Positions 6,080 to 25,440 of a DNA stretch of 64,000 bases are shown here, piece by piece. Source of the DNA: Betaproteobacteria bacterium. GTDB taxonomy: Bacteria; Pseudomonadota; Gammaproteobacteria; Burkholderiales; Casimicrobiaceae. The notes beneath the pieces are model-generated. The model was given only the letters and a program-made list of their open reading frames with translations. It did no database searches and was not told the DNA's origin. The translations under genes were made by a program, and so were the position numbers. Location of the stretch: contig JACPUX010000010.1 in NCBI GenBank assembly GCA_016192065.1, forward strand, positions 49,728-113,727. The letters run 5' to 3'. How positions within the stretch are numbered: the first letter of the stretch is position 1; each line of letters begins with the position of its first letter.

Positions 6080-7078
6080 ATGCCCGAATCCCGCAACACA
6101 CTCCAATGCCTGCTTGAACTTTTGCAGCACATTCCGCGTCATCCGCAGAGCATTACCGTGGCGGAGTTGCGTGACGCGCTGGATCGCAACGGCTTTACGC
6201 TCACCGAGCGTTCCATACAGCGACATCTGGTTACGCTGTCGCAATCGTTCTCCATCACGGCCGAGGAGCGCGAAAAACCGTATCGTTGGTACTGGACGCC
6301 AAGCGCACAGGGTTTGACCATCCCGGCACTCTCGCGCACCGCCGCGCTCACCCTGCTGATGGCGGAAAAGCACTTGCAAGGTTTACTACCGCAACCGATG
6401 TTGAAGGAACTCGGTGCTTACTTCGAGGCGGCGCGTCGCGCCCTTGCCAGCTCGCGCGAAGGGCCGCGCCGCTGGCTCGACCGCGTGCGCATCGTGCCGC
6501 CGGCGCAACCGCTGCTTGCTCCCACCATCGCGGCAGACGTGCACGAGGCGGTCTCGAAAGCGCTTTTGGATTCGCGCCAACTCCGCATCAAGTACCAGAA
6601 GCGCGGCGAAAAAAGCGCCAAGGACTGGACGATTCATCCCTTGGCCCTCGTGCAGCGTGGCCCGATGCTCTACCTCTATTGCCGCTTGTTCGACTACCCG
6701 GACGCGCGCACGCTGGCGCTGCATCGCATCAAGTCGGCCGAGTTGCTCGATGACAAAGTCGAGGCGCCGGAGGGGTTCGATCTCGATCGGCAAATCGTGG
6801 CGGGTACCTGGGGCTTTGGGGCGGGCCAGGAAATCGCGGTTGATCTCTACTTCTACAACGAGGCAGGTGATCACCTGATGGAAACGCCGCTCGCCGCCGA
6901 TCAACAAATCACGGAGTTCGGCAACGGCGAACTGCGAGTCAAGGCGCGGGTAGCGGATACGCCGCAACTGCGCTGGTGGATTTTGAGCATCGGTGATGGC
7001 GTCGAGGTCAAGAGGCCCAAGCGCCTGCGCGGCGAAATTGCTGAAGTCGCCAAGGCCACCGCGGCGCTTTACGAATAG
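6080..7078 (+). CDS. HTH-WYL-WCX transcriptional regulator (BrxR/CapW/PafBC-like)
   Basis: N-terminal wHTH (ITVAELRDALDRNGFTLTERSIQRHL), central WYL domain (WTIHPLALVQRGPMLYLYCRLFDYPDARTLALHRI), C-terminal extension; 332 aa. Confidence 0.8.
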   Translation: MPESRNTLQCLLELLQHIPRHPQSITVAELRDALDRNGFTLTERSIQRHLVTLSQSFSITAEEREKPYRWYWTPSAQGLTIPALSRTAALTLLMAEKHLQGLLPQPMLKELGAYFEAARRALASSREGPRRWLDRVRIVPPAQPLLAPTIAADVHEAVSKALLDSRQLRIKYQKRGEKSAKDWTIHPLALVQRGPMLYLYCRLFDYPDARTLALHRIKSAELLDDKVEAPEGFDLDRQIVAGTWGFGAGQEIAVDLYFYNEAGDHLMETPLAADQQITEFGNGELRVKARVADTPQLRWWILSIGDGVEVKRPKRLRGEIAEVAKATAALYE

Positions 7079-10132: not shown

Positions 10133-10202
10133 GGTATCCCTCTACAAGCAAAGCCTGCCGATCCGCTGGCAGGACGCAAGGATCAGCTCGGAAAGCCTTT
10201 CG

Positions 10203-10835: not shown

Positions 10836-10965
10836 GTCGATATCCGAAAGTTTGATCGGGTATGCATGGTCTCATTTTGGTGCGACATTTCGTGTCGCAG
10901 CATTCAAGGCCCGACACTTCCTGGTACTTTGAGCGCAGGGAGCGCGGTTAGCAGCTACGTGCTTA

Positions 10966-11631
10966 CTATTTCAGACTTTCTAGCCACGAACTCGCGGAGA
11001 GCAGATGCGTTTCAGGTACCCACCGGCCCACTGCTCTTCTAACCGATCCAGATATCCCCAGAATCGCGGACACTTTTGGAAGGACTTCTTGGTTTTCATC
11101 TGAGAGCTGTACGGCTGTTTGGAAGAGCTTTGAGCCACACTTGTCGCCCTCCACGATAACCAAGGTAGGTTCCGCGTTAGCGCGCCGCAAATGCGCGTTG
11201 TTGGCAAGATGGTTCAGCGCCGACGGCGGCCATAAAGGCGAATCAGGCATTGAATGGACTTCGCGAACCTTTAAGAGCCCGATCACAAAACAGGTGCCAG
11301 GGGACACCGCCGGACCCTGAAATCCAGCGTAGAACACAAGATAGTCGCCGGCCGTCAATCTAAGCAGTTGAAGGCGTTTGGGATTGTTAGGCTCGCCGTA
11401 GGTGAAGGTGCCAAATTCGGGATCGAAGTGCGCTGGTTGGTCGCGGGAAACAAACTTGAGAAGCGAACCTCCAGAGCGAGCAGGTATATGACTGTACAGA
11501 ACAGCGCGCCCCGGAAGCAACGGTTTGCTTTCGGGGATAGGGACGTACTCGAAACAGCCGTCGGCATTGATCGGGGACAGGGTTCCTCCACATCCCCGAT
11601 CAATGCCAACTCGAAGGAACAATATCTTCAT
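10966..11631 (-). CDS. unknown-function protein P240, paralog of the next gene (start MKILFLRVGIDRGCGG, ATGA-coupled to upstream stop)
   Basis: ATG at 11631 overlaps TGA of the upstream gene (ATGA); shares an N-terminal beta-strand/Gly-loop motif [KR]V.xDRG... and a downstream GD..hhh.G motif with P261. Confidence 0.55.
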   Translation of the reverse strand: MKILFLRVGIDRGCGGTLSPINADGCFEYVPIPESKPLLPGRAVLYSHIPARSGGSLLKFVSRDQPAHFDPEFGTFTYGEPNNPKRLQLLRLTAGDYLVFYAGFQGPAVSPGTCFVIGLLKVREVHSMPDSPLWPPSALNHLANNAHLRRANAEPTLVIVEGDKCGSKLFQTAVQLSDENQEVLPKVSAILGISGSVRRAVGRWVPETHLLSASSWLESLK

Positions 11632-12413
11632 GGCTGGGAAATGTCTTCCTCGCCCGCCGCGTCCGACTCCTTCTCGCGATGTTGGCACTCACCGCATCGC
11701 GGGGACTCGTTGGGATTGCCAGGCCCATCGGCCGGTTGGCCAAGTATCCCGGAATTCTCAATATTCAGATTGCTAAGTGATGTGTTGAACCACTCCCGGA
11801 ACTTTTCCCTGAAACCCGCATTCGCGTTGGAACGGTGCCCCTGGCCTCTCGGGACTATCGCTTCTAGTTCGTTGGGCAACCGCGCATTGTAGCGGTCGCC
11901 ACGACCAAAATACCAGTACTGGCGGCCAATCAGGACTTTTTGCCCGTTAGTAACGTCTCTCTCAAAATCGTCCTCGCCATGACCAGACCACGATGGTAGA
12001 GGTGCCTGCTCATCTGTTGCACTCTTCCAAATACAATCGCCGGGGTTTCGCTCGCCCTGTGGCACCTTGGCTGTGAAGGACTGGTCGTTACTGCAGCGAG
12101 TGATATAGCATTCCCAGCATATTGCTTCCCCCACAACCATCAGATAGACAAGTCTGTTGGAATCATCTCCGCATCCAAACCCCGCTACAACATCGCCGGG
12201 TTGTGCAACACGCCGGATGATAGGCTTGCAAATGGCAAGCGTGCAAATTTTTCCAAAGGGGTTCGGCGCACTACCGCGGTCTGCCGCCACTTTGTACGTG
12301 AAAAGCCGATGATTCTTGAACTCCGGCAAACCGCCCATTTCCATTTTCTCCCGTTTTTTCCGCCGCATGCGGCATTCACTATCATCGAAAAGGACTAATC
12401 CTGTAGCGACCAA
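11628..12413 (-). CDS. unknown-function protein P261 (N-terminal motif FTYKVAADRGSAPNPFGKICTLAICKP; C-terminal CGECQH)
   Basis: 261-aa ORF overlapping both neighbours (operon); paralogous N-terminal region with P240. Confidence 0.55.
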   Translation of the reverse strand: MVATGLVLFDDSECRMRRKKREKMEMGGLPEFKNHRLFTYKVAADRGSAPNPFGKICTLAICKPIIRRVAQPGDVVAGFGCGDDSNRLVYLMVVGEAICWECYITRCSNDQSFTAKVPQGERNPGDCIWKSATDEQAPLPSWSGHGEDDFERDVTNGQKVLIGRQYWYFGRGDRYNARLPNELEAIVPRGQGHRSNANAGFREKFREWFNTSLSNLNIENSGILGQPADGPGNPNESPRCGECQHREKESDAAGEEDISQP

Positions 12414-13234
12414 TCCACCAAACTTGCCACTACGCGAGAGGCAGATTTTTCCTCGTTGTTCTGTGCAAAGAGATATCGCCGCTCATTATGCATCCCTCCC
12501 CGATCGCGCTCAACGGCCGGAACGCGCTCGAACCCCGTCCACGCCTGCGTGTACTCGGCCACCAAAAGAAACTCCGGGAAAACCCCGCATCGTTGCGCAA
12601 TTCTTTCCAGCAGACCGTCGCGGCCAAAGCGCTCGTAGTTACCGCCGAAGCCATGATCGACAAGCACTACCGCAAACGGTGGCCGCTGTTCATGGCCTTG
12701 GCAGAACAGTGCGTCGTAGCTGGCGATGCCGTCGGCGCCTAGAAACAGAATGGCGAGCCGCTTCGCGCCATGTTCTTCGGCAAGGTCCGGGTTTCTTTCG
12801 AGCACTTCCAGAAAACCAAAAGGTGCGTCCGCCACGCTGGCAAAATTCAGTGCGGAGGCGATGTTTAGTTCGTCGGGCGCGAGGTGGCTTCTCCAGCCAT
12901 TCGGAACGAGATCGCTTTCGCGCAATGGCACGCGGGCTAACCGGTGGTAACCGAGAAACCCGTGTTCCGGGTGCTCCAAAGTCTTTTCCAGTTCCGCCTG
13001 CGTGCGGCCATAGTCCACATAGACGAAGCAATGCGCAGCGTGCGCCGAGCCGAAGAGTTTGACCGGGTGGCCGTCGGTTCCGGAACCTGGGTAATAGACG
13101 ATGCGCGAGCTAAGGAATGCCTGGCGCGGAAAGGCATTTCCATTTGTGAATTGGGCGAGCCAGTCAGGCATCGCTTCGCGCTTCTCGCGTAGATATTCGC
13201 TTGGCGTCATGGTGTTCTCGCGTATGCGGGTCAT
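12395..13234 (-). CDS. unknown-function protein P279 (possible Rossmann-like G-loop VYYPGSGTDG)
   Basis: 279-aa ORF, 19-nt overlap with P261; weak similarity to a SAM-MTase motif I only. Confidence 0.5.
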   Translation of the reverse strand: MTRIRENTMTPSEYLREKREAMPDWLAQFTNGNAFPRQAFLSSRIVYYPGSGTDGHPVKLFGSAHAAHCFVYVDYGRTQAELEKTLEHPEHGFLGYHRLARVPLRESDLVPNGWRSHLAPDELNIASALNFASVADAPFGFLEVLERNPDLAEEHGAKRLAILFLGADGIASYDALFCQGHEQRPPFAVVLVDHGFGGNYERFGRDGLLERIAQRCGVFPEFLLVAEYTQAWTGFERVPAVERDRGGMHNERRYLFAQNNEEKSASRVVASLVDWSLQD

Positions 13235-13378: not shown

Positions 13379-15556
13379 TCATCGAGGCCTCGCCGCCAAT
13401 GCGGTTTCCGGAACACCGCTCAAGAATCCGATGGTGGCTCGCCGCACATCGGGGCGTGCCGCTTGCTCGGCGCGCAGGCGGCCGATGAGATCTTCAAGGT
13501 CGCTCACGGGGCGCAGACGTGCTTGGCGGATGACCAGGGCAAAGTCGCCAGGTGTGAGCGGGCCTAGGCGCAGCACCCGGTCCCTGACCGCGACAATCCG
13601 GTCGAGGCCGAGCGTCTCGGCGGTATCTTGAAAGAGCAGCCAGGCCTGCTCTGGTCGGAGATAGTCGAAGCGGATCTTGCAATCGAAGCGCCGTAGCGAG
13701 GCAAGGTCGAATTGCTCGATCAGATTGGTGGAGGCGAGAAAGACGCCTTCGAAGTTTTCCATTTGCGTGAGCATTTCGTTGACCAGCGTCACTTCCCAGG
13801 ACCGCTGGGCATTGCCGCGTTGCTGCAGGAAGCTGTCGGCTTCGTCGAGCAGTAAGATCGCCTTCTCCTCGCGCGCTTCGGCAAACATGGCCGCGGCATT
13901 GTGCTCGTTTTCGCCCACCCATTTCGACAAGAGGTCCGAAGCGCGCCGCACCAGCAGGGGGCGATCCATGGTCTGCGCAAGATGCTGGGCAAAGGCGGTC
14001 TTGCCGGTTCCGGGCGGGCCATAGAAGCACAGGCGTCCGCTTTGCGCTCGTTGCAGCGTTTCGGCCATGCCGGCGATGTCGCAGTCGCAATTGAGTGCCT
14101 CGGGTCGATAGGTGGTAACCGACCTTGCCTGCACGCGCGGCTCGCGCGGCAAACCGAGCGCTTGCAGCGAATTGCCGATGGTGGTGCTGAGCGCGGCTTC
14201 GAGTTCCGCGCCCGGCCACTCCGCTAGGGCCGCATGCGCAATTTTCGCGGCCTTGGCCACGAGTGCTGGCACCAATTGCTCGTGCTCGGCGAAGCGACTC
14301 TTCCAGGTATCGGAAATGGCCAGACCGGCGAGTTCGTTGTCCAGCACCTGACGGCGCACGCATCGGGGTGGCGCATCCATGCGCAGCACAAAATCAAAAC
14401 GACGGCGCAAGGCGCGGTCCATCGACCAGACGTTGTTGCAGACCCAGATCGCGGGAACCGGATTCGTTTCGAGCTGGTTGATGAAAAAACCCTTGAGGTC
14501 GCTGCGTTTGCCCATCTCTTCGGGCGAGGCCTCTGCCGGTCGAAACACTTCATCGACCTCATCGAAGAAAAGCAAATGCGCTCCCGCTCGCTCCAGGAGC
14601 GCCTGGGCCAGGCGAAAGGCTCGCAAGCGCTGCGGGCTTTCAAGCGGAGCCCCCCAGCGAGTGAGCACCGCTACTTCAAACAGAGCGCTGCCTGCCTCGC
14701 GTGCAATCATCCGGGCAAATTCGGTCTTGCCGGTGCCGGGTTCGCCGTAGAGCAAAACGTTAACGCCGCGCCGGCGATCACGCAGTGCGGCACCGAAATA
14801 GGCCTTCAATACGGCAATCTCACGCGCAAGATGCGGGTAGTTTTGCGCGGCTAAAACGGGCGCCGGCGCGGCGGCAATGCGGCTTCGAAAAACCCGGAGC
14901 ACGTCGTCGCCGGGTTTGTTCGCGAGGTCGACCAGACTATCGATGACGCTGATGCAATCCAGAAACAGCTCTTTCCGGCGGCGCTCTTCGACAACACCAC
15001 TTCGGAAGAGCATTCCTTCCGGTGCCAACGCCTCCTGTATGCGTTGCTCGTCGATGGCCAGAGCGCAGGACAGAACCCGACTCGGAGGTATCATTTGCCA
15101 CGCTCGGCAGGAGAGAATACTCCATAGCGGGTCGCTATCTGCGGCCAGACGAAATTCAAGTATGGCTTGCTCGACCGGATCAAGTGCAAGGCGGGTGGCA
15201 AGCTGCTTGACCGGTTCGCCAAACTTGCAGTGCGTTGGCGTTTCCTTCTCCATTGCCTCTGCCTGCTGCCAATCCCTACGCATGCGGGCAATGATGGCAT
15301 CACGGTTGAAAGGGCCTTGCTCGGGGCTGCGGTCGATTTCATCGCCTAGGTCGAGCGCCCGCGCAACGGAGTCTTCGCGAAACTCTTTTTCCGTGATCAG
15401 CTGCTTGTAGTAACCGAGCCCAAGGAGCAAGCGATAAGCCCATAGCTTCGTCCGCGCGCAGGGCGTGACGCCGAGCGACATGCCCGGTTCCTCCGCCATG
15501 GGCAGTGCTTCACGCGTTGTGGGTTGTTTTGCGGCGGGATCGAGATCGGCGGGCAT
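13379..15556 (-). CDS. tandem AAA+ ATPase (two CbbX/SpoVK-like AAA modules)
   Basis: Two Walker A motifs (LLYGEPGTGKTEFARMIA and LCFYGPPGTGKTAFAQHLA), each followed by a Walker B-like segment (hhhFDEVDEVF and ILLLDEADSF); 725 aa. Confidence 0.85.
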   Translation of the reverse strand: MPADLDPAAKQPTTREALPMAEEPGMSLGVTPCARTKLWAYRLLLGLGYYKQLITEKEFREDSVARALDLGDEIDRSPEQGPFNRDAIIARMRRDWQQAEAMEKETPTHCKFGEPVKQLATRLALDPVEQAILEFRLAADSDPLWSILSCRAWQMIPPSRVLSCALAIDEQRIQEALAPEGMLFRSGVVEERRRKELFLDCISVIDSLVDLANKPGDDVLRVFRSRIAAAPAPVLAAQNYPHLAREIAVLKAYFGAALRDRRRGVNVLLYGEPGTGKTEFARMIAREAGSALFEVAVLTRWGAPLESPQRLRAFRLAQALLERAGAHLLFFDEVDEVFRPAEASPEEMGKRSDLKGFFINQLETNPVPAIWVCNNVWSMDRALRRRFDFVLRMDAPPRCVRRQVLDNELAGLAISDTWKSRFAEHEQLVPALVAKAAKIAHAALAEWPGAELEAALSTTIGNSLQALGLPREPRVQARSVTTYRPEALNCDCDIAGMAETLQRAQSGRLCFYGPPGTGKTAFAQHLAQTMDRPLLVRRASDLLSKWVGENEHNAAAMFAEAREEKAILLLDEADSFLQQRGNAQRSWEVTLVNEMLTQMENFEGVFLASTNLIEQFDLASLRRFDCKIRFDYLRPEQAWLLFQDTAETLGLDRIVAVRDRVLRLGPLTPGDFALVIRQARLRPVSDLEDLIGRLRAEQAARPDVRRATIGFLSGVPETALAARPR

Positions 15557-15743
15557 GGCGACACCAGAATGGAAAACGTTCGGGTGCCGATTGTAGGGGG
15601 TGCATGCGACACATTATGTCGCTTTAACTATTATTGCGGCTTTGCGAGCAGATCGACTTGCGGGTCTTGAAACGCATCTATACGATTCCGCGAGTAGAAC
15701 TCTGGCCTGGCAATGGCGCATTTTTTTCCGGATGGAGGCAATT

Positions 15744-16235
15744 ATGGATATTCACCTGAATTGGGTAGGCCCAATGTCGTTGGAGGCCGCTCACGAACTT
15801 TTGAACCAGGATGACGTCGGTTTGTATCAGTGGTATGGCGACCATCCGGTATATGGTGCCGAGACACTGCTCTACATCGGGATGGCCTTTGACCAAAGGT
15901 TAGGAGAAAGACTGGAGCAGGAGAACTGGGGAGAATGGATTCCTTCCACTCCGAGTCTTTATGTTGGGCGCGTTTGCACCGAGAACGGCAGCGCGCCAAA
16001 CAATGGAAGAACGATAGTTATGACCGCGGAAAAGGTTCTTTTATTCTCCCACAGCCCTGCGTTCAACTCGAGCAACCTAAACAATATCGACGGTGTGGCG
16101 CAAGATGTCCGCGTCCTCAATTGGGGGATGCGGAAGAGCTTATTGCCGGAAGTTAGCGTCTATCGGTGGGTGGCTGGCGGGCAGCATGGTCATCGGCTGC
16201 CGAATGGTTTATCTCCAGTTCAATGGTCAAATTGA
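15744..16235 (+). CDS. hypothetical protein, possible GIY-YIG-like nuclease fold (low GC)
   Basis: GGAGG RBS 5 nt upstream of ATG 15744; motif GLYQWYGDHPVYGAETLLYIGMAFDQRLGERLEQ resembles GIY...YIG...R...E but the spacing (15 aa) is atypical. Confidence 0.35.
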   Translation: MDIHLNWVGPMSLEAAHELLNQDDVGLYQWYGDHPVYGAETLLYIGMAFDQRLGERLEQENWGEWIPSTPSLYVGRVCTENGSAPNNGRTIVMTAEKVLLFSHSPAFNSSNLNNIDGVAQDVRVLNWGMRKSLLPEVSVYRWVAGGQHGHRLPNGLSPVQWSN

Positions 16236-16236
16236 G

Positions 16237-17091
16237 CTATATCTCGGGCGCATGCGTCAGGTGGTGCGACTTCGCGCCGAGTGGATTGAATGGCGGCATG
16301 AGCCTGTTTAGCGCCGCCACGGCCTCGTGGTTAGCGGCATCGATAATGTCTACCACGCTCGCATCCACGCCCATTCGTTGAACGATCGTCTCTAGCGGCA
16401 ACGCCAGCACCATCGGCGTCCAACTACGCAACATGTACAGGGCGGTGGCAGCAGCACTCGCGGCACATGCACCTTCAAAACGGAAGGGTAGCGCCACCAC
16501 TGCGGCCATGGGGATGCTGTTGGCTTGCGCGAGCCGAGTCAGTCGCAGTGCCAGGTGTGTCCCGGTACGCCGCCCCACACCGGCGCAGAGAAGCACATAC
16601 TCGCTTTCACAGACCAGCGCTTCCAGTTCGTTCTTGTTTTCCGCAACCACTCGCGAGACGCGCTCCGCATAGCGCATTGATTCCGGACACGCGTCTAGGT
16701 CGAGCAGCAGCTTCTTGTCCGCGCGGCGACGCGCCAGCGAATCACGGTCAGTATTGATGCAAACCGTTCGCACAGGTGGCGCACCGGGTTCCGCGAGGTA
16801 GCGTTCCATGATGTTGCCGCCCGCACCACCGAGACCAAACAGCGTAACGCTTGCGCCGGCCTTGGGCCCGCGCGATCCGGCATGGGCCAGCCAGGGAAAT
16901 GCGCCGAGGGCACTGGCGCAAACAGCGGCCCGGAGAAAACTTCGGCGTGGTAAGGCAGAATCGAGGATGGGAGCTTCCTTCAGGCTTCGCGCGCTCCGAT
17001 TGGCCAATATACTGGCTTCCCGGCGCGCTGGGGCGCGATGTGAGTGGTCCATGGCGAGGTCTCCTTCAACTGACAGACTTGGCGCCAGCAT
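16237..17091 (-). CDS. Tat-signal-bearing, degenerate FtsZ/tubulin-fold protein (N-terminal GTPase-domain homolog only)
   Basis: Tat motif LPRRSFLRAAV + h-region + AHA; then FGLGGAGGNIMERYL / CINTDRDSL / LLCAGVGRRTGTH / AVVALPFRFEG, aligning with FtsZ GVGGGGGNAV / AVNTDAQAL / IAAGMGGGTGTG / AVVTKPFNFEG; T3 loop deleted and T4 degenerate. Confidence 0.65.
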   Translation of the reverse strand: MLAPSLSVEGDLAMDHSHRAPARREASILANRSARSLKEAPILDSALPRRSFLRAAVCASALGAFPWLAHAGSRGPKAGASVTLFGLGGAGGNIMERYLAEPGAPPVRTVCINTDRDSLARRRADKKLLLDLDACPESMRYAERVSRVVAENKNELEALVCESEYVLLCAGVGRRTGTHLALRLTRLAQANSIPMAAVVALPFRFEGACAASAAATALYMLRSWTPMVLALPLETIVQRMGVDASVVDIIDAANHEAVAALNRLMPPFNPLGAKSHHLTHAPEI

Positions 17092-17661
17092 TCATGACAA
17101 TGCGCGGCGCAGGAAATTTTCGAACGAGGGCTTGTCTCGGGTCAAGCGCCAGACCAGGGGCACCAGCACGACAAGCCATAACATCCCGCTTTGGCGCTTG
17201 CGCTCGCGTTCGTGCGCGCTCTCGCCCGTCGGGTTAAGCATATCTTTTAGAGCGCCGATGAGGAATACCGCAAGTGTGAGTTTTGTCACCAGCGCGATGG
17301 CGAAGCGCCACGGCGATGGGTTGTCGACCGCGGTGCGAAACGAGAGCCCGAGCAGCGCAGCCGTTGCCCCTCCGAGGCAAACCAGTAGCAGCAAGCGAGA
17401 ATTGGAGAAGACAAGCGCACCCAGCAAAAACGCGGCAACCGCAAGCACCCAGCCATAATCCGCCGCATCACGAAACACGACAACGCGTTCACGTATGCCG
17501 AGCACGATTCCCGTCGAGACCATGATCAGCCAGCCCAGGATGAACCATTCGGTGGGCGATATTGGGCTTACCTCCACTGCGCCGCGCGCTCCCGCAGAGA
17601 CGAAAATCAGCGCCATGGTGCAAACGAGATTGGGCCAATTCAGAAACGGTTTCACATTCAC
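17092..17661 (-). CDS. small integral membrane protein (4-5 TM), immediately abuts the FtsZ-like gene
   Basis: Hydrophobic segments throughout; stop codon directly abuts the start of the FtsZ-like ORF. Confidence 0.5.
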   Translation of the reverse strand: MNVKPFLNWPNLVCTMALIFVSAGARGAVEVSPISPTEWFILGWLIMVSTGIVLGIRERVVVFRDAADYGWVLAVAAFLLGALVFSNSRLLLLVCLGGATAALLGLSFRTAVDNPSPWRFAIALVTKLTLAVFLIGALKDMLNPTGESAHERERKRQSGMLWLVVLVPLVWRLTRDKPSFENFLRRALS

Positions 17662-17911
17662 ATCCTCCTATCTGCACTTTCACCGGCGCTGCGACTGCCA
17701 TCGCGTCGCCGCGTAAGAGTCGCTACCTCGACTATGAATGATGCATGCGACAAGATGCGTCGCATGAAGGAGGATGTGTTCTTGCTGCTGGCCACAACTT
17801 GGTGACGCATTGCCCGACGGACTGTATTTGTCTGCCTGACAAGCCGCAATTGGTGCCGCAATTGGCGCGGCTTACTGCGTGGGGCAACGCACTGGCAGGC
17901 GGGTTGAGCGG

Positions 17912-20074
17912 CTACTTGCCCTCAAGATCATCCATGAACTCGGACGCCGGGGCCGTTCCTGTAACCAACAGCCTGTCCCGCGCGCGCGTGCAGGCGACAT
18001 AGAGCAATTGCCGCTCGGTGTCGTAAACCTCCTGCAGGTCGCCGTCGTCGCCGACCGTTTCGATCCGCTCCTGCAGCGGGATGATTTCGTCGTCGCAGGC
18101 CATCACCGCCACCGCGCGGAACTCCAGCCCTTTCGCCAGGTGCATGGTGCAGACCGACACCTGCCCGGGTTCCGTCGCCACGTGGTCATCCAGAATCCGG
18201 CAAGGCAAGCCGGCGATGCGAAGCGCTTCCTCGGCCCGGCCGATTTGCGCGCCGGAACGCACGAAAACGGCCATCTCATGCGGCTGGATGCCGGCGCTGG
18301 CGCATTCGGCGAGCCAGTCCGCTACGACCGCGCTTTCTTCCGCCGCATCGCCCAGAATCCGCAGACGCGGCGGCGGGCCGTTGAACACCGACACGGCATC
18401 GCTGCGGTCTTCGCTATTGCCGTCCGCGTCGGTCACGGTGGGGCCGAGCAGGCGATCCGCCTGGCTGCGAATCTGGTGCGAAGTCCGGTAATTGACGCGC
18501 AGAGTGCGGGAGCGGCCGCGCACATCCACGCCGAGCGATTTCCAGGAGAAAGGCTGCTGGAAGATGCGCTGCCCAAGGTCGCCGGCGAAGAACAGCGCAT
18601 TCGGGCGCACCGCGCCTTCCCCTCCGGCCAGCGCAACCAGAAAGCGCAAGTGCGCGACCCCGACATCCTGCGCCTCGTCGACCACGGCGAAATCGAAAAC
18701 GGGATTGCGCCTCGCTTTCAAGGCGCTTGCCAGGGCCGTGAATAGCCCCGAGGCCGTGACCAGGCCCTTGTCGCGCAAGCCGGCGCGGACGCGCTCGAAG
18801 ATCGCCCACAACACCGCCCGCTGCGCTTCCGGCAGCCGGGTCTTGCGGCCGAGGCGCACCACGTCGCGATAGGCCTCCCAGCGGTCGAGCTGCCAGGCAT
18901 CGACCACGTGTTCCCATTCGGCGAGCAGAAAGCGCCGGCCGAACTTGTGTCCCGCCACGGCCCCGGCGGCGGCGTCCATGAGCTGGCGAATGTCGTCGCG
19001 GGTCGCCAGCTGTGCCGAGCCGACATGGGTCTTGTACAAGCGCAGTCCGATGGCGTCGAGAGAAAACACGTCGATCCGCTCGGCGAGCCGCGGCTCGGAA
19101 GTCAGCAGGCGGTTGAGCTTCGATTGCAGGGCACTGGCCAGTGTGTCGGTAAACGTGGCCAGAAGGACGCGCGCATCGGGATTCGTCCGCGCCAGATGCG
19201 CGGCGCGGTGCAAGGCCACGATGGTCTTGCCGGTGCCGGCCGAACCGGCCACGCGCGCCGGGCCGGCGTAATCCCGCTCCACCCACTGGCGCTGCTCGGG
19301 GTGGAGAAAGACCGTCCATTTCTCCCACGGATAATCGAGGGCGCGCTGCAATTCCTCGACGTTGCCCATCACGCGGAAGCGGCGCTGCGCGTCGGGATGG
19401 TCGAACGGGCTGACCGCCGACGGTGCAGGCACACGCGGCTTGCCGCCCGTCGCCAGTTCAAGCAGCGCCTCCGCCGCCTCTGCCGGCAAATGATCGGCAA
19501 GGACGAGCAGGCTGTCCTCCGTGGCCTGCTTCACGTCGGGCAACCACTCCGGCGGCACGCCGTAGCCCAGCAGCTCGTCGTCGGGAACGTTCAGGAATAG
19601 CGGCTTCGCCGCCACCACTTCTGTGGCACTCGCTGGCAAGGGCAATTCGCCCTGCACAACCACCGGCACCACGATTTCCCTGACCGTCTCGCGGATCTCG
19701 ACCAGTTGCGCCGCGCCAGTCTTGGGATGGGTTTCGAGCTTGCGGCGCTCGGCCCACTCGTAGGCCTTGTCGTGGTGATCGACGTAGCAAAGCAGCAGGC
19801 TCGACTCGCTGCGGTGAACGATCAGGCGAATGTCGCTGCCCACCCGCACCGACCAGAAATTCTTGTCCTTGGCGCGGTCGAGCTTGTGAAAACTCAAGCC
19901 GGGGCTGGCGGGATTCAGTTGCAGGTCGAAAGCGGTCGTCTTGACGAGCTTCTGCTCGTCGCCGGTCAGCCGGGCCAGGCTTTCAGTGAAGGTGTCAGCG
20001 ATGAGGTACTGCATGTACGAGACCGCTTCGCCATCCGAATCAAGGTGTATGCAGACAGCCGCGGGCGATCGCAA
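17912..20074 (-). CDS. UvrD/Rep-family SF1 helicase with N-terminal RelE/ParE-like domain
   Basis: Walker A GSAGTGKTIVALHRAAHLA, C-terminal LLYVACTRARDRLLV (motif VI); N-terminal about 110 aa with FWSVRVGSDIRLIVHRSESSLLLCYVDHHDKAYEW resembling RelE/ParE toxin-fold C-terminal motifs. Confidence 0.8.
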   Translation of the reverse strand: MRSPAAVCIHLDSDGEAVSYMQYLIADTFTESLARLTGDEQKLVKTTAFDLQLNPASPGLSFHKLDRAKDKNFWSVRVGSDIRLIVHRSESSLLLCYVDHHDKAYEWAERRKLETHPKTGAAQLVEIRETVREIVVPVVVQGELPLPASATEVVAAKPLFLNVPDDELLGYGVPPEWLPDVKQATEDSLLVLADHLPAEAAEALLELATGGKPRVPAPSAVSPFDHPDAQRRFRVMGNVEELQRALDYPWEKWTVFLHPEQRQWVERDYAGPARVAGSAGTGKTIVALHRAAHLARTNPDARVLLATFTDTLASALQSKLNRLLTSEPRLAERIDVFSLDAIGLRLYKTHVGSAQLATRDDIRQLMDAAAGAVAGHKFGRRFLLAEWEHVVDAWQLDRWEAYRDVVRLGRKTRLPEAQRAVLWAIFERVRAGLRDKGLVTASGLFTALASALKARRNPVFDFAVVDEAQDVGVAHLRFLVALAGGEGAVRPNALFFAGDLGQRIFQQPFSWKSLGVDVRGRSRTLRVNYRTSHQIRSQADRLLGPTVTDADGNSEDRSDAVSVFNGPPPRLRILGDAAEESAVVADWLAECASAGIQPHEMAVFVRSGAQIGRAEEALRIAGLPCRILDDHVATEPGQVSVCTMHLAKGLEFRAVAVMACDDEIIPLQERIETVGDDGDLQEVYDTERQLLYVACTRARDRLLVTGTAPASEFMDDLEGK

Positions 20075-20414
20075 ACTCTTTCAGCTTCTTGGCCAGCTTC
20101 CGGCACTCCTTATCCGCACGCTGGCCAAAATTGATGTAGGCATGTGCCGGTGAAGCAGGAATAATCGGATCGGGTTGGCTCGCCAAACCCGCATGAGTGA
20201 CCTCATCGCACTTCACTCCCCATACGCCTGCCGACGGATTTCCCAGATCATCGGTGTAATGACAGTATGATGCCTCAGCGGAAATCTGGTCACCGTCATA
20301 CACCGACAGCCGCCCATGATCCTTGGGAAATGGGTAAAACGCCTGACTTGACAGTATGCCTTCCGGAAGAAAGTTAGGATGCACCTGCCGCAGCAACAAG
20401 GTCTGACCATTCAT
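20040..20414 (-). CDS. hypothetical protein P124
   Basis: 124-aa ORF, 35-nt overlap with the helicase gene and 4-nt overlap with the upstream gene (operon). Confidence 0.45.
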   Translation of the reverse strand: MNGQTLLLRQVHPNFLPEGILSSQAFYPFPKDHGRLSVYDGDQISAEASYCHYTDDLGNPSAGVWGVKCDEVTHAGLASQPDPIIPASPAHAYINFGQRADKECRKLAKKLKEFAIARGCLHTP

Positions 20415-21511
20415 GCAGCGGTTGTCCTGATGCTGTCACTCAAGAATCCAAATAGCGACTGCCATTCCGCAGCGTTTTCCAGTTTGAATTCACGCTCGAT
20501 GTCATTGCCGTTCGGCCCGAACGCATGAAAGCTGGCTTGAAGGCTGCTCAAAAGAAGATCGAGAGACGGAGAACCATCAGCCGCCCATTCCAGCAGCAAG
20601 TTGCCGTCCTGCGTTGGAACGATGCTCGGCAGTATCAATCTTTCCGGATAGTCCGCAATGAGCTTGTCGGCAACGATTGCCAACTTGTCAGCATCAAGGG
20701 CCGCGCCTTGCCCCTCGTACCAACCAGCCCGCACCTGGGCAAGCTCATCCATGCGCGTGGCAATCGCGTAATTTCTTACAACCTCCATTGACTCCACGGA
20801 AATCAGTTTCTGCAAGCGATCCCAAGAATCATGTGCCGCCACACCTTTCAAAGCCACCTGATGTCGTGGCTTCCCGCCGTATTCTCGCGCCTTGTTGTGG
20901 AAAGAATCCGGCATAGGCACGTTGACTTGATTGCCATCGGCGAGGCGAAGCCTAAACGTCGATTTTTCCCAATCCACTTCCGCAATGGAACCGAGTAAAT
21001 CGACTTCCTTTTCATATACCTGATCGGCGGCAAGCACCAATTTCTTTCGCTTGTCCGGAGTCAATACCGCGCTTCCAGCTCGTTGGCGCGGCAATTCCAG
21101 GGCCTCGCCCTCACGCAGTGAACGGCCAAACTGGTTGAAATGCGCCAGGAGTTCCTTGGGAAAATTGTCGGGCAAAGCGTTTTCCGGTGCGGCAATACAC
21201 TCGGAAACCAGGTCTCTGGCCTGATCGAAATAGTCTCGCTCCCCACCCACTAGCGCCAGCGCGCCGGAAAGCACCAGAACCAAATTCGGCATAGCACTGC
21301 CTGGATCGATGCGCTCAATGTCCAAACGAAAGTTCGACGCGAAGCCCTTCGGAACACGCTCCCGATCGGGATGATCCGTCAAGTACAGGTGCTTGGCGAG
21401 GTCGAGGATCAAGCTTTCGTACGCAGCAAGGTCGCGTGCGACATCAACCGGCAAGGTTTTCTCGTCGAACCTTGCGCCGGTGAACTTGGGTTGCGAAAAA
21501 TCGGTCTTCAT
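20411..21511 (-). CDS. hypothetical protein P366
   Basis: 366-aa ORF, first gene of the 3-gene operon, 73 bp downstream of the mod stop; moderately lower GC. Confidence 0.5.
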   Translation of the reverse strand: MKTDFSQPKFTGARFDEKTLPVDVARDLAAYESLILDLAKHLYLTDHPDRERVPKGFASNFRLDIERIDPGSAMPNLVLVLSGALALVGGERDYFDQARDLVSECIAAPENALPDNFPKELLAHFNQFGRSLREGEALELPRQRAGSAVLTPDKRKKLVLAADQVYEKEVDLLGSIAEVDWEKSTFRLRLADGNQVNVPMPDSFHNKAREYGGKPRHQVALKGVAAHDSWDRLQKLISVESMEVVRNYAIATRMDELAQVRAGWYEGQGAALDADKLAIVADKLIADYPERLILPSIVPTQDGNLLLEWAADGSPSLDLLLSSLQASFHAFGPNGNDIEREFKLENAAEWQSLFGFLSDSIRTTAA

Positions 21512-21583
21512 ATGCCCTCAGGCAAGCAGTTTACACCACCCGAAACACCTTCATCACCTCATCCCCCAGGTGATTGATGACCT

Positions 21584-24388: not shown

Positions 24389-24588
24389 GGTGTCAGGTTG
24401 CCGATGTCGGAATGATGCGTTTGAGGCGTTTTTGAGGCGTTTCGATCGCCCTGAGTCGTGGCGGGTTTGACGGGTTCGTGACGGGTTGCCCGATGAGGCA
24501 TGAGCTCATAGAGCCGTTTATGAGACCTTGGCGGTGTGAGTCTGGCATGGCAGTCATGGCACCTTTGTGGCCCGCTTGTGGGTGTTGA

Positions 24589-25431: not shown

Positions 25432-25440
25432 GAACCTTCC

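What the first reader, a model, noticed from the sequence alone, without database searches (positions are those of the whole stretch)
16237..17661. Truncated, degenerate FtsZ/tubulin-fold protein carrying a twin-arginine (Tat) signal, translationally abutting a small polytopic membrane protein
The 284-aa product of 16237-17091 aligns convincingly with the FtsZ N-terminal GTPase domain (FGLGGAGGN vs GVGGGGGN; CINTDRDSL vs AVNTDAQAL; CAGVGRRTGTH vs AAGMGGGTGTG; AVVALPFRFEG vs AVVTKPFNFEG). It lacks the T3 loop region, has a degenerate T4 loop (GRRTGTH), and has no C-terminal (T7) domain. So it is unlikely to be a polymerising GTPase. The N-terminus has a near-canonical Tat motif (LPRRSFLRAAV) with h-region and AHA cleavage site, predicting export to the periplasm, where GTP is absent. 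The upstream gene's stop abuts its start (17091/17092), pairing it with a 4-5 TM membrane protein. An exported pseudo-FtsZ is highly unusual. It is located between two candidate defense operons.
Basis: partly seen in the sequence, partly recalled or inferred. Interest (0 to 1): 0.75.

Follow-up and report, generated by a model that had tools for sequence, protein, structure and literature searches.

The report
Exported FtsZ-like protein in DNA-damage regulon
This is a two-gene operon for a small membrane protein and a cut-down, probably GTPase-dead relative of the cell-division protein FtsZ that carries an export (Tat) signal. It belongs to a rare, apparently undescribed family that seems to be switched on by a DNA-damage/phage-sensing regulator together with a Cdc48-like ATPase.

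Summary
ORF 16237-17052(-) encodes 271 aa, starting at ATG 17052 rather than 17091. It is an FtsZ N-terminal GTPase domain plus helix H7 only (Pfam PF00091 E 1.5e-11; AlphaFold core pLDDT >90; Foldseek to FtsZ E 5e-15). The T3, T4, T6 and H7 nucleotide contacts are degenerate, and the T7 loop and C-terminal domain are absent.

The twin-arginine signal (LPRRSFLR, 19 uncharged residues, AHA) recurs in about 20 relatives only 22-30% identical. It was absent from 267 canonical FtsZ controls.

The membrane partner (17092-17655) is conserved but rare (7 clusters). The genes are 39 nt apart with a conserved ribosome-binding site. They do not abut.

New findings: a DriD-type operator (TGCGAC-N7-GTCGCA) lies upstream of this operon. 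It also lies upstream of the adjacent Cdc48-like tandem AAA+ gene and of a DUF2628-DnaB operon. The same box, the AAA+ ATPase and a WYL regulator accompany Tat-FtsZ-like genes in most related loci, including a Rhodoferax antarcticus plasmid.

Best reading: an ssDNA-induced, Tat-exported pseudo-FtsZ effector acting at the envelope or divisome. The anatomy is well supported; the function is inferred. I found no published description.

The parts
17746..17764 (.). Palindromic operator TGCGACAAGATGCGTCGCA (DriD/DdaA-type CGAC-N7-GTCG box), about 85 nt upstream of the membrane-protein gene.
   Evidence: Conserved in the upstream regions of five orthologous or paralogous loci. There are 3 matches in the window against 0.45 expected by chance. 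The box recurs in promoters of FtsZ-like, AAA+ and WYL genes in 12 related loci, against 2 hits in 2.05 Mb of unrelated loci. The DriD consensus ATACGAC(N7)GTCGTAT is taken from PMC10853764.
17092..17655 (-). Inner-membrane partner protein: 187 aa from GTG 17655, or 189 aa from GTG 17661. It has a signal-peptide-like N-terminus followed by 4-5 transmembrane helices. The conserved loops VVFRDAAD and RTAVDNPSPW and the tail LVWRLTRDKP are predicted to be cytoplasmic.
   Evidence: ORF. Hydropathy. AlphaFold2 helical bundle, pLDDT 77.5. 56% identical to the L006 partner, E 4e-49. Only 7 clusters in 5.8 billion proteins. N-out topology is inferred from P0276, where an LprI-like periplasmic domain (PF07007, 22.6 bits) precedes the same TM domain. 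dN/dS 0.25-0.36.
17061..17067 (-). Shine-Dalgarno sequence GAAGGAG, 8 nt upstream of the true start of the FtsZ-like gene, inside a 39-nt intergenic spacer.
   Evidence: The SD and downstream ATG are conserved in L001, L002 and L015, whereas the ATG abutting the stop is not.
16237..17052 (-). FtsZ-like pseudo-GTPase gene (271 aa plus stop).
16879..17052 (-). Predicted Tat signal peptide (residues 1-58). It has a long n-region, L-P-R-R-S-F-L-R (RR at residues 36-37, nt 16942-16947), an h-region AAVCASALGAFPWLAHA, and an AHA|G cleavage site followed by basic residues.
   Evidence: RR is at least 90% conserved in a 20-sequence alignment with 26% mean identity. A TATFIND-like rule is met: 19 uncharged residues, mean Kyte-Doolittle hydropathy 1.14. 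This segment has the lowest dN in the gene. None of 73 + 80 + 114 canonical FtsZ controls carries such a signal. Pfam TAT_signal is the only family matched by the peptide, but it is sub-threshold (E 0.12, 12.8 bits).
16300..16851 (-). FtsZ N-terminal GTPase-fold core plus helix H7 (residues 68-251). T1 (GLGGAGGN) and T2 (NTD) are intact. The T3 motif is lost. T4 is GVGRRTGTH instead of GMGGGTGTG. T5 PFRFEG is kept but the Arg142 equivalent is lost. T6 has Asn changed to Leu. H7 has Phe182 changed to Ile and Asp187 changed to His.
   Evidence: Motif table against E. coli and Burkholderiales FtsZ. AlphaFold pLDDT >90. Foldseek.
15605..15623 (.). Second DriD-type box (TGCGACACATTATGTCGCT), 49 nt upstream of the AAA+ gene start.
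   Evidence: An equivalent box lies 38-50 nt upstream of the orthologous AAA+ genes in L006, L009, L012, L015, L171 and L176.
13379..15556 (-). Cdc48/VAT/p97-like tandem AAA+ ATPase (725 aa), a co-regulated and recurrent neighbour of Tat-FtsZ-like genes.
   Evidence: Pfam AAA, 2 stretches, E 1.3e-47. PDB best hits are VAT and Cdc48, E 5e-27. Orthologues (36-57% identity, full length) lie next to FtsZ-like genes in L006, L009, L012, L014, L015, L170 and L172.
10881..10899 (.). Third DriD-type box (TGCGACATTTCGTGTCGCA), 46 nt upstream of the DUF2628/zinc-ribbon to DnaB operon.
   Evidence: The same arrangement is seen in L002 (12803-12821) and L015.
6080..7078 (+). wHTH-WYL-WCX transcription factor, the candidate regulator that binds the boxes. 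A PP2C phosphatase gene follows at 7295-8215.
   Evidence: Pfam WYL 1.2e-13 and WCX 1.6e-14. The best solved relatives are C. crescentus DriD entries (E 1.4e-4). Orthologues (31-54% identity) occur in L002, L006, L010, L013, L014 and L170. Annotated WYL-domain genes also lie in the plasmid loci L171, L172 and L174-L176, but I did not compare those by sequence.

Best explanation
The segment is a two-gene operon. The first gene encodes a polytopic inner-membrane protein. The second encodes a 271-aa protein that is only the N-terminal GTPase domain plus helix H7 of FtsZ, preceded by a twin-arginine signal peptide.

SHOWN:
- The fold is that of the FtsZ N-terminal domain.
- The protein is truncated after H7.
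- Several nucleotide-contacting motifs are lost.
- The RR signal is conserved across a rare family. The family includes N-domain-only forms and two-domain forms (Tubulin + FtsZ_C).
- A DriD/DdaA-type palindrome (CGAC-N7-GTCG) sits in the promoter of this operon, of the adjacent Cdc48-like tandem AAA+ gene, and of a DUF2628-DnaB operon.
- The same box, AAA+ ATPase and WYL regulator recur around Tat-FtsZ-like genes in unrelated genomes.

INFERRED:
- The WYL protein binds these boxes. Like DriD and DdaA, it turns the genes on when ssDNA accumulates during DNA damage or phage replication.
- The FtsZ-like protein folds in the cytoplasm and is exported folded by Tat. Relatives with intact loops may carry bound GTP or GDP, which would explain the use of Tat rather than Sec.
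- In the periplasm or at the outer face of the inner membrane, it acts with its membrane partner on the envelope or divisome. The result would be a division arrest or an abortive-infection-type effect. This is analogous in logic to the DriD-controlled membrane inhibitor DidA and the DdaA-controlled AciT.
- The AAA+ unfoldase is a co-induced component that handles this cargo or its complexes. In other genomes the WYL and AAA+ genes are instead followed by Sir2 or PLD/helicase genes, so the FtsZ-like gene may be one of several interchangeable cargo genes. I did not test that idea directly.

The window's own protein is most likely a nucleotide-free pseudo-GTPase scaffold, not a polymerising enzyme.
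For: Fold and truncation.

Tat signal:
- 20 of the top 154 cluster representatives carry M-x-RR-x-F-[LI] plus an uncharged h-region before the T1 loop.
- So do L006_356 and Rhodoferax WP_162274854.1.
- None of 73 GTDB, 80 JGI and 114 canonical FtsZ controls does.
- The signal segment has the lowest dN in the gene.

Periplasmic partners in the same operons:
- The membrane partner has N-out topology.
- Further Tat-signal proteins are L010_276 and L014_146.

Regulon:
- Operator alignment and enrichment.
- The operator matches the DriD consensus and the DdaA motif.
- The WYL protein has WYL and WCX domains, and DriD is its best solved relative.

Module recurrence: AAA+ in 8 of 13 family loci and WYL in 8 of 13.

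Variable genes beside WYL and AAA+: Sir2 follows the AAA+ gene in Sphaerotilus; PLD/helicase genes follow the WYL gene in Rhodoferax.

Intact ORFs and dN/dS below 1 argue for function.
Against: - Export is not demonstrated. The Pfam TAT_signal score is sub-threshold (12.8 against 22.7 bits), TIGR01409 did not hit, and RR lies at residue 36, beyond the 35-residue limit that I recall TATFIND using.
- No GTP is expected in the periplasm.
- Some two-domain relatives (P0110) keep the catalytic T7 residues N-x-D-x-x-D. That would make more sense in the cytoplasm.
- The conserved loops of the membrane partner are predicted to be cytoplasmic, not periplasmic.
- The mature domain has 5 cysteines, which is unusual for a periplasmic protein.
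- L002, a close relative, has the pair but no AAA+ gene within 10 kb. Five of the six AAA+ plasmid loci I examined lack an FtsZ-like gene. The link is therefore facultative.
- No DriD-type box was found upstream of the window's own WYL gene.
- PADLOC has no model for the pair, so a defence role rests on context only.
- dN/dS of 0.4-0.6 is also compatible with relaxed constraint.
Confidence: 0.5

Rival explanations
1. The target is cytoplasmic. The N-domain-only FtsZ homologue binds the T7 face of host FtsZ, as SulA does, or it binds a phage tubulin. It would cap or sequester that protein and stop division or phage spindle function. On this reading the Tat signal is not for periplasmic function. 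It would either clear the inhibitor from the cytoplasm (a reset, as Lon does for SulA) or co-export the bound target by hitchhiking. The AAA+ unfoldase would dismantle the complexes.
For: - The protein keeps the nucleotide-face half of the FtsZ longitudinal interface but lacks the T7 half. That is the geometry of a filament capper.
- Some two-domain relatives keep the T7 catalytic residues.
- The membrane partner's conserved motifs face the cytoplasm.
- Non-Tat short FtsZ-like proteins cluster with the family.
- DriD and DdaA regulons include division inhibitors.
- A Cdc48-like segregase is co-regulated.
- Immune sensing through FtsZ has a precedent (PMC13423816, title and abstract listed).
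Against: - The signal peptide is the most conserved part of the protein and has a canonical AxA cleavage site.
- Other signal-bearing proteins share the operons, which points to a periplasmic assembly.
- The interface-forming T3 loop is not conserved.
- There is no evidence of any FtsZ interaction.
Confidence: 0.22
2. The RR segment is not a Tat signal. It could be an uncleaved N-terminal membrane anchor or a recognition tag, for example for the AAA+ ATPase. The FtsZ-like domain would then stay in the cytoplasm, tethered to the membrane beside its partner.
For: Curated Tat models are sub-threshold. The n-region is long (35 aa). Basic residues flank both sides of the h-region. The partner's conserved loops are cytoplasmic.
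Against: - The h-regions are short, rich in Gly/Ala/Ser/Thr/Pro and of low hydropathy (0.8-1.6). This is typical of Tat signals and too weak for a stable TM helix.
- Most members have M-x-RR-x-F-L at the extreme N-terminus followed by AxA.
- The positive-inside rule would still place the domain outside.
Confidence: 0.13
3. The pair is free-standing island cargo, for instance a superinfection-exclusion or toxin-immunity pair. It would have no functional tie to the AAA+ ATPase. The shared operator would only reflect a general island-wide stress regulator.
For: - L002 has the pair without an AAA+ gene.
- L011 has the membrane-protein homologue with a different partner and no FtsZ-like gene.
- The WYL and AAA+ genes occur with unrelated neighbouring genes.
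- In Moraxellaceae, DdaA-type regulators control many unrelated defence systems.
Against: The AAA+ orthologue is adjacent in 8 of 13 family loci that span 22-30% FtsZ-like identity. It is often in the same operon (L009, L012, L015) or divergent from a shared promoter carrying the box (L170, L172).
Confidence: 0.12
4. It is a decaying, non-functional remnant of a duplicated ftsZ.
For: Motifs are degenerate. The protein is truncated. dN/dS is raised (0.37-0.65, and 1.0 for one close pair).
Against: - The ORFs are intact and equal in length in five genomes at about 70% identity, with a conserved SD and operator.
- Core dN/dS is below 1.
- The AlphaFold core is confident.
- The same architecture is present in relatives below 30% identity.
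Confidence: 0.03

Closest known systems
Bacterial FtsZ (TIGR00065; PF00091 + PF12327)
   Same: The N-terminal Rossmann-like GTPase fold and helix H7 are shared (Foldseek prob 1.0, rmsd 2.2-2.8 A over about 188 columns). The T1 G-box, the T2 NTD motif and the T5 PFxFEG motif are also shared.
   Different: There is no C-terminal (T7/FtsZ_C) domain, linker or FtsA-binding tail. The T3, T4, T6 and H7 nucleotide contacts are substituted. It carries a Tat signal. It is encoded in an accessory island. It scores 73 bits against the 295-bit equivalog cutoff.
FtsZl1 / FtsZl2 (Makarova and Koonin 2010, PMC2875224; Pfam Tubulin_2 PF13809)
   Same: They are divergent FtsZ-superfamily proteins lacking the canonical T6-H7/C-terminal elements. 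They are encoded with membrane or exported proteins and were proposed to act on membranes.
   Different: FtsZl1 is far more divergent: that paper reports using sensitive distant-similarity methods such as HHpred, and it describes a coiled-coil domain and vWA/OmpA/kinase neighbours. The authors and a reviewer regarded it as cytoplasmic. The window protein hits PF00091 and TIGR00065 directly, has no PF13809 hit, and has a Tat signal and a WYL/AAA+ context.
DriD regulon of Caulobacter (didA, bapE, recA...) and DdaA regulon of Acinetobacter (aciT, recA, RM, CRISPR)
   Same: The regulator has wHTH-WYL-WCX architecture. The operator is a palindromic CGAC-N7-GTCG box in target promoters. The regulon mixes DNA-metabolism genes with a membrane-associated effector.
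   Different: The regulator is only distantly related to DriD (E 1e-4). The targets here are island-borne and differ: a Tat-FtsZ-like protein, a polytopic membrane protein and a Cdc48-like AAA+. No binding or induction data exist.
SulA / MciZ / truncated-FtsZ cappers
   Same: A protein presenting only one face of the FtsZ longitudinal interface could block filament growth. It may also be inducible by DNA damage.
   Different: SulA and MciZ are not FtsZ homologues and act in the cytoplasm. This protein has an export signal, and no interaction has been shown.
Tat-exported division proteins AmiA, AmiC and SufI/FtsP of E. coli (from my own knowledge, not tested here)
   Same: They are folded proteins sent by Tat to the periplasmic side of the divisome.
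   Different: The folds are unrelated (amidase, multicopper-oxidase-like). They are housekeeping genes and are not stress-induced.

Membership tests
FtsZ/tubulin superfamily (PF00091) | N-terminal GTPase-domain fold recognised above the curated threshold | tested here: met
   45.3 bits against a cutoff of 33. AlphaFold plus Foldseek match FtsZ structures at E 5e-15.
FtsZ/tubulin superfamily (PF00091) | Tubulin signature motif GGGTG(S/T)G in loop T4 | tested here: not met
   The window has GVGRRTGTH, and close orthologues have GLGRRTGVH or GLGGRTGVH.
FtsZ/tubulin superfamily (PF00091) | GTP binding, GTP hydrolysis and GTP-dependent polymerisation | not testable with these tools
   Sequence suggests these are lost: the T3 motif is absent, the Arg142, Asn165 and Asp187 equivalents are replaced, and there is no T7 loop.
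Bona fide cell-division FtsZ (TIGR00065 equivalog) | Full-length match above the equivalog cutoff, including FtsZ_C and the C-terminal peptide | tested here: not met
   73 bits against a cutoff of 295. Only model positions 15-199 of 353 are matched. There is no PF12327 hit.
FtsZl1 (Tubulin_2, PF13809) | PF13809 match, coiled-coil C-terminus and vWA/OmpA/kinase neighbourhood | tested here: not met
   No PF13809 hit at E<=1. The neighbours are a membrane protein, an AAA+ ATPase and a WYL regulator.
Tat substrates | Twin-arginine consensus (S/T)-R-R-x-F-L-K | tested here: met
   L-P-R-R-S-F-L-R. RR is at least 90% conserved over 20 sequences with 26% mean identity.
Tat substrates | Weakly hydrophobic uncharged h-region of at least 13 residues, then an AxA site | tested here: met
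   19 uncharged residues with mean Kyte-Doolittle hydropathy 1.14, followed by A-H-A|G.
Tat substrates | Curated signal model (PF10518 / TIGR01409) above threshold | tested here: not met
   PF10518 gives 12.8 bits against 22.7 for the window peptide. The best family member, P0062, reaches 22.0 bits. TIGR01409 is not reported.
Tat substrates | tatC-dependent export of the folded protein | not testable with these tools
   Needs a reporter fusion or cell fractionation.
DriD/DdaA-type WYL regulon | Palindromic CGAC-N7-GTCG box in the promoter | tested here: met
   Boxes at 17746-17764, 15605-15623 and 10881-10899. They are enriched against shuffles and against 2 Mb of control loci.
DriD/DdaA-type WYL regulon | Cognate wHTH-WYL-WCX regulator encoded nearby | tested here: met
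   Window 6080-7078 has WYL and WCX domains. DriD is the best PDB relative, but only at E 1.4e-4.
DriD/DdaA-type WYL regulon | ssDNA-dependent binding and transcriptional activation | not testable with these tools
   Needs EMSA or fluorescence polarisation with and without ssDNA, and RT-qPCR after mitomycin C.
Known anti-phage defence systems (PADLOC-DB 2.0) | Match of the FtsZ-like or membrane protein to a defence-system model | tested here: not met
   No hit at E<=1 for either protein. The AAA+ protein matches IetA only over one AAA domain.

The most novel reading that the evidence does not exclude
This would be the first tubulin/FtsZ-superfamily proteins that work outside the cytoplasm. On this reading the family members fold in the cytoplasm, some loaded with a single GTP, and are exported by Tat. 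Together with dedicated membrane and periplasmic partners they would form or poison a periplasmic or divisome-associated structure. A DriD-like ssDNA sensor would deploy them on demand, along with a Cdc48-like unfoldase, as a DNA-damage or phage-triggered division-arrest or abortive-infection module.
Probability: 0.35. Interest if true: 0.85.

Novelty: new variant of a known kind. Interest (0 to 1): 0.78.

Why it matters
As far as I know, every characterised FtsZ/tubulin relative works in the cytoplasm, where GTP is available. A conserved family with export signals would therefore break a general rule. It would also add an unexpected substrate class to the Tat pathway.

The regulatory link gives a concrete handle. 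A DriD-type operator is shared with a Cdc48-like ATPase, and a WYL sensor gene is nearby. This predicts when the genes are expressed (ssDNA, DNA damage, phage), and that prediction can be tested directly.

It also extends the DriD/DdaA paradigm, in which a WYL activator controls a membrane-associated division inhibitor, to Betaproteobacteria and to mobile islands.

A cultured carrier exists for experiments: Rhodoferax antarcticus DSM 24876, plasmid NZ_CP019242.1, protein WP_162274854.1, currently annotated 'hypothetical protein'.

Tried and rejected
- **Word-indexed search with the single protein.** It found only 4 close homologues.
- **Word-indexed search with a 13-sequence profile.** It was swamped by canonical FtsZ.
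- **Genome-contig scan with the membrane-protein alignment.** Nothing found.
- **Genome-contig scan with the T1-motif alignment.** It gave one true relative (L015) and 73 canonical FtsZ, which I used as negative controls.
- **Viral-contig scan.** Nothing found.
- **Metagenome-contig scan.** 80 canonical FtsZ and no Tat-bearing members.
- **tblastn of the window protein and of P0018 against 72,556 plasmids.** The window protein had no match. P0018 had one weak partial match, on a Priestia megaterium record, that I did not follow up. Only the Rhodoferax protein was found, and that came via the AAA+ neighbour.
- **PADLOC.** No model for the pair.
- **FtsZl1/FtsZl2 identity.** Rejected.
- **Weak Wzy_C hit of the membrane protein** (16-20 bits against a cutoff of 31.7). 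Treated as noise.
- **Foldseek of the membrane-protein model against PDB.** No match with E<0.3.
- **afdb50 fold library.** Not available.
- **Promoter and terminator consensus scan.** Not above the shuffled expectation.
- **P0090, an FtsZ with 'RRSFF' and a DIPAFLRKQ tail.** Rejected as a Tat member because its h-region is interrupted by Lys.
- **Literature searches** for Tat or twin-arginine combined with FtsZ-like, FtsZ homolog, DUF2779 and defence terms. No description of this family was found.
Full report
**1. What is in the sequence**

On the minus strand there are two consecutive ORFs. One runs 17092-17661 and is hydrophobic. The other runs 16237-17091.

That ATG is not conserved in the orthologous loci L001, L002 and L015. 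All four loci instead share a strong Shine-Dalgarno sequence (GAAGGAG or AAAGGAG; window 17061-17067), placed 7-8 nt before the ATG/GTG that corresponds to window 17052. NCBI also starts its protein there (P0001, 271 aa, 'hypothetical protein', Betaproteobacteria MAG).

I therefore take 16237-17052 as the gene (271 aa). The two genes are separated by 39 nt, so this is an operon but not a translational abutment. By the same logic the membrane gene most likely starts at GTG 17655 (187 aa). All residue numbers below use the 271-aa numbering.

**2. The FtsZ relationship is real, and the protein is only half an FtsZ**

- Pfam Tubulin/FtsZ GTPase domain: E 1.5e-11, 45.3 bits against a cutoff of 33.
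- NCBIfam ftsZ equivalog: E 2.7e-20. It reaches only 73 of the 295 bits required, and only model positions 15-199 of 353 are matched.
- phmmer against solved structures: only FtsZ is found, best E 4e-15.
- AlphaFold2 model built on a 149-sequence alignment: a confident core (residues 68-251, pLDDT mostly >90), with a disordered N-terminus and a disordered last 20 residues.
- Foldseek: the core aligns to about 188 columns of many FtsZ structures (E 5e-15, probability 1.0, rmsd 2.2-2.8 A).

The model ends with helix H7. There is no T7 loop, no FtsZ_C domain, no linker and no C-terminal peptide.

I compared motifs with E. coli FtsZ (sequence from memory) and with a Burkholderiales FtsZ retrieved. 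The results are:

| Element | Window protein |
|---|---|
| T1 | GLGGAGGN, intact |
| T2 | NTD, intact |
| T3 | GLGAGxxP replaced by ACPESMRYA; the segment is only 2 residues shorter than in M. jannaschii FtsZ, so this is substitution, not deletion |
| T4 | GVGRRTGTH instead of GMGGGTGTG |
| T5 | PFRFEG kept, Arg142 equivalent lost |
| T6 | Asn165 changed to Leu |
| H7 | Phe182 changed to Ile, Asp187 changed to His |

The protein is therefore very unlikely to bind or hydrolyse GTP in the canonical way, and it cannot make a canonical head-to-tail filament.

**3. The twin-arginine signal is a conserved family character, not a chance motif**

The window protein reads ...LDSALPRRSFLRAAVCASALGAFPWLAHA|GSRGPKAG..., followed 12 residues later by the first strand and the T1 loop.

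An exhaustive HMMER search of 1.84 billion cluster representatives found only one other cluster below E 1e-30. It found 4196 FtsZ-like proteins in total.

Among the best 154, 20 pass a TATFIND-like rule. The rule asks for:
- RR followed by x-hydrophobic residues;
- at least 13 uncharged residues, with mean hydropathy 0.8-1.6;
- all of this before the T1 loop.

Most of these sequences read M-x-R-R-x-F-[LI] at the extreme N-terminus and end in AxA. Examples:
- MDRRYFLQLVGATAGIGTVPGIAKA
- MDRRNFIYGIGTLAASGTLPAPAFA
- MNRRGFLQQLGAGAAALGATPGVNLA

In a 20-sequence alignment with 26% mean identity, the two arginines are among the few columns conserved at 90% or more.

Controls were clean:
- 0 of 73 canonical FtsZ genes from GTDB species representatives carry such an N-terminus.
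- 0 of 80 from JGI metagenomes do.
- 0 of 114 canonical FtsZ proteins do. The single extra 'hit' in that set, P0171, is a 226-aa member of this same family.

Within the window clade, the signal segment has the lowest non-synonymous divergence in the gene (dN 0.04-0.11, against 0.14-0.19 in the core).

Caveats:
- The curated Pfam TAT_signal model is the only family matched by the window peptide, but at 12.8 bits against a cutoff of 22.7.
- TIGR01409 was not reported.
- The n-region is long, at 35 residues.

I put the probability that this is a working Tat signal at about 0.75-0.8.

**4. The family**

A neighbour-joining tree of the domain groups the degenerate members together. These are the window clade, P0006/7/11, P0018/36/65/96, P0029 and P0008. 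They are N-domain-only, and some have a helical C-terminal extension. They sit among short FtsZ-like proteins that have no signal.

A second group (P0058, P0110, P0081, P0131) also carries the signal; by sequence L172_369 is closest to P0110 (35% identity), although it was not in that tree. P0110, P0131 and L172_369 are two-domain proteins with Tubulin plus FtsZ_C. Several members have near-canonical loops, and P0110 keeps the T7 residues N-x-D-x-x-D. There is thus a gradient from apparently GTP-competent to clearly degenerate members, all with the signal.

Locus L006 encodes two tandem Tat-FtsZ-like paralogues (356 and 385 aa, 35% identical) directly after the membrane partner.

The family is rare. 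It appears in one GTDB species representative (an Alcaligenaceae MAG, L015) and in one of 72,556 plasmids.

**5. The membrane partner**

The partner has a signal-peptide-like N-terminus and 4-5 hydrophobic helices.

It is more conserved than the FtsZ-like protein. Identity to the L006 partner is 56% where the FtsZ-like proteins are 34% identical. dN/dS is 0.25-0.36.

It is extremely rare, with 7 clusters in 5.8 billion proteins.

One homologue, P0276, has a Sec-type signal and an LprI-like periplasmic domain (PF07007, 22.6 bits) in front of the same transmembrane domain. This fixes the N-terminus outside. It also places the most conserved loops (VVFRDAAD, RTAVDNPSPW) and the basic C-tail in the cytoplasm.

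P0276 is followed by a different two-TM protein and has no FtsZ-like gene next to it. The membrane protein is therefore not strictly tied to the FtsZ-like gene.

No fold match was found in the PDB. The weak Wzy_C hit is below threshold, and I do not rely on it.

**6. The surroundings change the interpretation**

Aligning the regions upstream of the membrane gene from five loci, including the distant L006, exposed a conserved palindrome.

In the window, TGCGAC-N7-GTCGCA (at most 1 mismatch) occurs three times, against 0.45 expected. All three sites are in promoters:
- 17746-17764, about 85 nt before the operon;
- 15605-15623, 49 nt before the AAA+ gene;
- 10881-10899, 46 nt before a DUF2628/zinc-ribbon to DnaB operon.

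The same box lies in front of FtsZ-like, AAA+ and WYL genes in L001, L002, L006, L009, L010, L012, L013, L015, L170, L171, L172 and L176. By contrast, 2.05 Mb of unrelated loci contain only 2 hits.

Its core is exactly the published DriD box, and it matches the DdaA motif:
- DriD: ATACGAC(N7)GTCGTAT, with conserved CGAC-N7-GTCG (PMC10853764).
- DdaA: CGWCA-N5-TGWCG (PMC12392091).

DriD and DdaA are WYL activators. They are switched on by ssDNA after DNA damage (PMC10853764, PMC12392091). They control recA and other repair genes. Their targets also include the membrane-associated division inhibitors DidA and AciT. In Moraxellaceae the targets extend to anti-phage systems.

The window encodes a wHTH-WYL-WCX protein at 6080-7078. 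Its best solved relatives are DriD entries, though only at E 1.4e-4. Orthologues accompany the FtsZ-like genes in L002, L006, L010, L013, L014 and L170, and an annotated WYL-domain gene lies in the Rhodoferax locus L172.

**7. The AAA+ neighbour**

The 725-aa protein at 13379-15556 is a Cdc48/VAT/p97-like tandem AAA+ ATPase.

Full-length orthologues (36-57% identity) lie next to Tat-FtsZ-like genes in several arrangements:
- L006: same neighbourhood.
- L009: directly downstream.
- L012: directly upstream.
- L014: same neighbourhood.
- L015: same strand, in the order membrane, FtsZ-like, 128 aa, AAA+.
- L170: divergent from a WYL to FtsZ-like operon.
- L172: divergent from the FtsZ-like gene, with two boxes in the shared promoter.

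Counting the window, AAA+ is present in 8 of 13 family loci and WYL in 8 of 13. Several of the negatives are short contigs.

The link is facultative:
- L002 has the pair but no AAA+ gene within 10 kb.
- On plasmids of cultured bacteria, the WYL and AAA+ genes (with or without DUF2779) are followed by other genes. Sir2/DUF4804/phosphatase genes follow the AAA+ gene in Sphaerotilus, PLD plus a DEAD helicase follow the WYL gene in Rhodoferax, and an SNF2 protein lies downstream in Pantoea.

These neighbours vary between genomes while WYL and AAA+ stay. I therefore suggest that the FtsZ-like gene is one of several interchangeable cargo or effector genes attached to a WYL plus AAA+ core. This was not tested.

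**8. Most likely mechanism**

Shown:
- The fold, the truncation and the motif loss.
- The conserved RR signal.
- The operon with the membrane protein.
- The shared DriD-type operator, and the recurrent AAA+ and WYL neighbours.

Inferred:
- ssDNA-activated WYL turns on the operon and the AAA+ gene.
- The FtsZ-like protein folds in the cytoplasm and is exported by Tat. In loop-intact relatives it would carry bound nucleotide, which gives a rationale for using Tat.
- At the periplasmic face it acts with the membrane partner on the envelope or divisome. In other loci it would act with further Tat-signal proteins such as L010_276, which has its own box, and L014_146. The outcome would be division arrest or abortive infection.

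The island context is compatible with a defence role but does not prove one. It includes type III RM, a Gabija-like UvrD, TA modules and Nmad genes. PADLOC has no model for the pair.

My confidence in the anatomy and the regulon is about 0.8. My confidence in the functional statement is about 0.3.

**9. Rivals**

The strongest rival is a cytoplasmic target. An N-domain-only FtsZ presents the nucleotide face but not the T7 face, which is the geometry of a filament capper. On this view Tat would clear the inhibitor or co-export its target, and the AAA+ would dismantle the complexes. Points in its favour:
- T7 residues are retained in some two-domain members.
- The partner's conserved loops face the cytoplasm.
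- Signal-less short relatives exist.

Further rivals are an uncleaved anchor, an independent cargo with no functional tie to the AAA+, and a decaying pseudogene. The last is unlikely:
- The ORFs are intact in five genomes.
- The SD and the operator are conserved.
- Core dN/dS is 0.37-0.63.

**10. Comparison with known systems, and novelty**

It is a member of the FtsZ/tubulin superfamily by fold. It is not a bona fide FtsZ, because it fails the equivalog cutoff and lacks half the protein. It is not FtsZl1 or FtsZl2 (no PF13809 hit, different context).

The regulatory logic resembles DriD with DidA and DdaA with AciT. The regulator is only a distant relative, however, and no binding has been shown.

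Full-text searches found no paper describing a Tat-signal FtsZ homologue or this WYL, AAA+ and FtsZ-like module. All database copies are annotated 'hypothetical protein'.

I rate it a new variant of a known kind: a known fold in an unprecedented predicted location and regulatory setting.

Noticed in passing
window 15600-16235 (+), probable true start about 15732/15741: This ORF is convergent with the FtsZ-like gene and sits between it and the AAA+ gene. It is a real gene, 37% identical (E 1.5e-28) to a 163-aa protein that follows the membrane-protein homologue in L011. It has a GIY-YIG-like motif (GxYxxY...LYIGxA) but no Pfam or NCBIfam hit. In L015 and L001 the same slot holds an unrelated 128-129-aa protein.
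   Followed up: partly
window 10881-10899 and 8777-10835 (-): A DriD-type box precedes a DUF2628/zinc-ribbon gene followed by a DnaB-family helicase. The same arrangement occurs in L002 and L015. This suggests a DNA-damage-inducible DnaB paralogue; for comparison, the Caulobacter DriD regulon includes dnaG.
   Followed up: partly
window 6080-8215 (+): A WYL-WCX regulator is followed by a PP2C-type phosphatase. The pair is conserved at 96% with L002 and at 47-50% with L006. No DriD-type box was found upstream of the window's WYL gene, unlike L006, L010, L013 and L170.
   Followed up: partly
window 10966-13234 (-): Nmad3 (PF18754) and Nmad2 (PF18753) nucleotide-modification-associated genes, plus a 279-aa protein with no family hit (79% identical to L002_261), lie immediately downstream of the AAA+ gene.
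   Followed up: no
window 17912-28518 (-): This stretch holds defence-type genes. There is a UvrD-like helicase with a weak (below-threshold) HigB-like match near its N-terminus; its PADLOC hits are NERD+UvrD at 1.9e-25 and GajB at 5.5e-19. There is also a 366-aa protein with no family hit, an N6/N4 methyltransferase (934 aa), a Bro-N protein, and a type III restriction helicase-endonuclease (1025 aa).
   Followed up: no
L006 6934-9158: Two tandem Tat-signal FtsZ-like paralogues (356 and 385 aa, 35% identical, with 4-nt gene overlap) follow the membrane partner. The arrangement recalls heterodimeric tubulins such as BtubA/B. The first paralogue is so degenerate that Pfam no longer detects it.
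   Followed up: partly
L172 (Rhodoferax antarcticus DSM 24876 plasmid NZ_CP019242.1) 5658-6767 (-): 'Hypothetical protein' WP_162274854.1 is a Tat-signal two-domain FtsZ homologue. It is divergent from an AAA+, DUF2779, WYL operon, with two DriD-type boxes in the shared promoter. It is the only cultured carrier I found.
   Followed up: yes
L010 293-1204 and L012 242-1147: A PF06189 5'-nucleotidase gene (53% identical between the two loci) is divergently transcribed from the FtsZ-like/AAA+ genes in both loci. It may be another module component.
   Followed up: no
window 16237-17052 compared with L001, L002 and L015: The FtsZ-like gene evolves fast. Amino-acid identity is about 70% at dS of only 0.3-0.47, with dN/dS 0.38-0.65. 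This is typical of conflict genes, or of relaxed constraint.
   Followed up: partly
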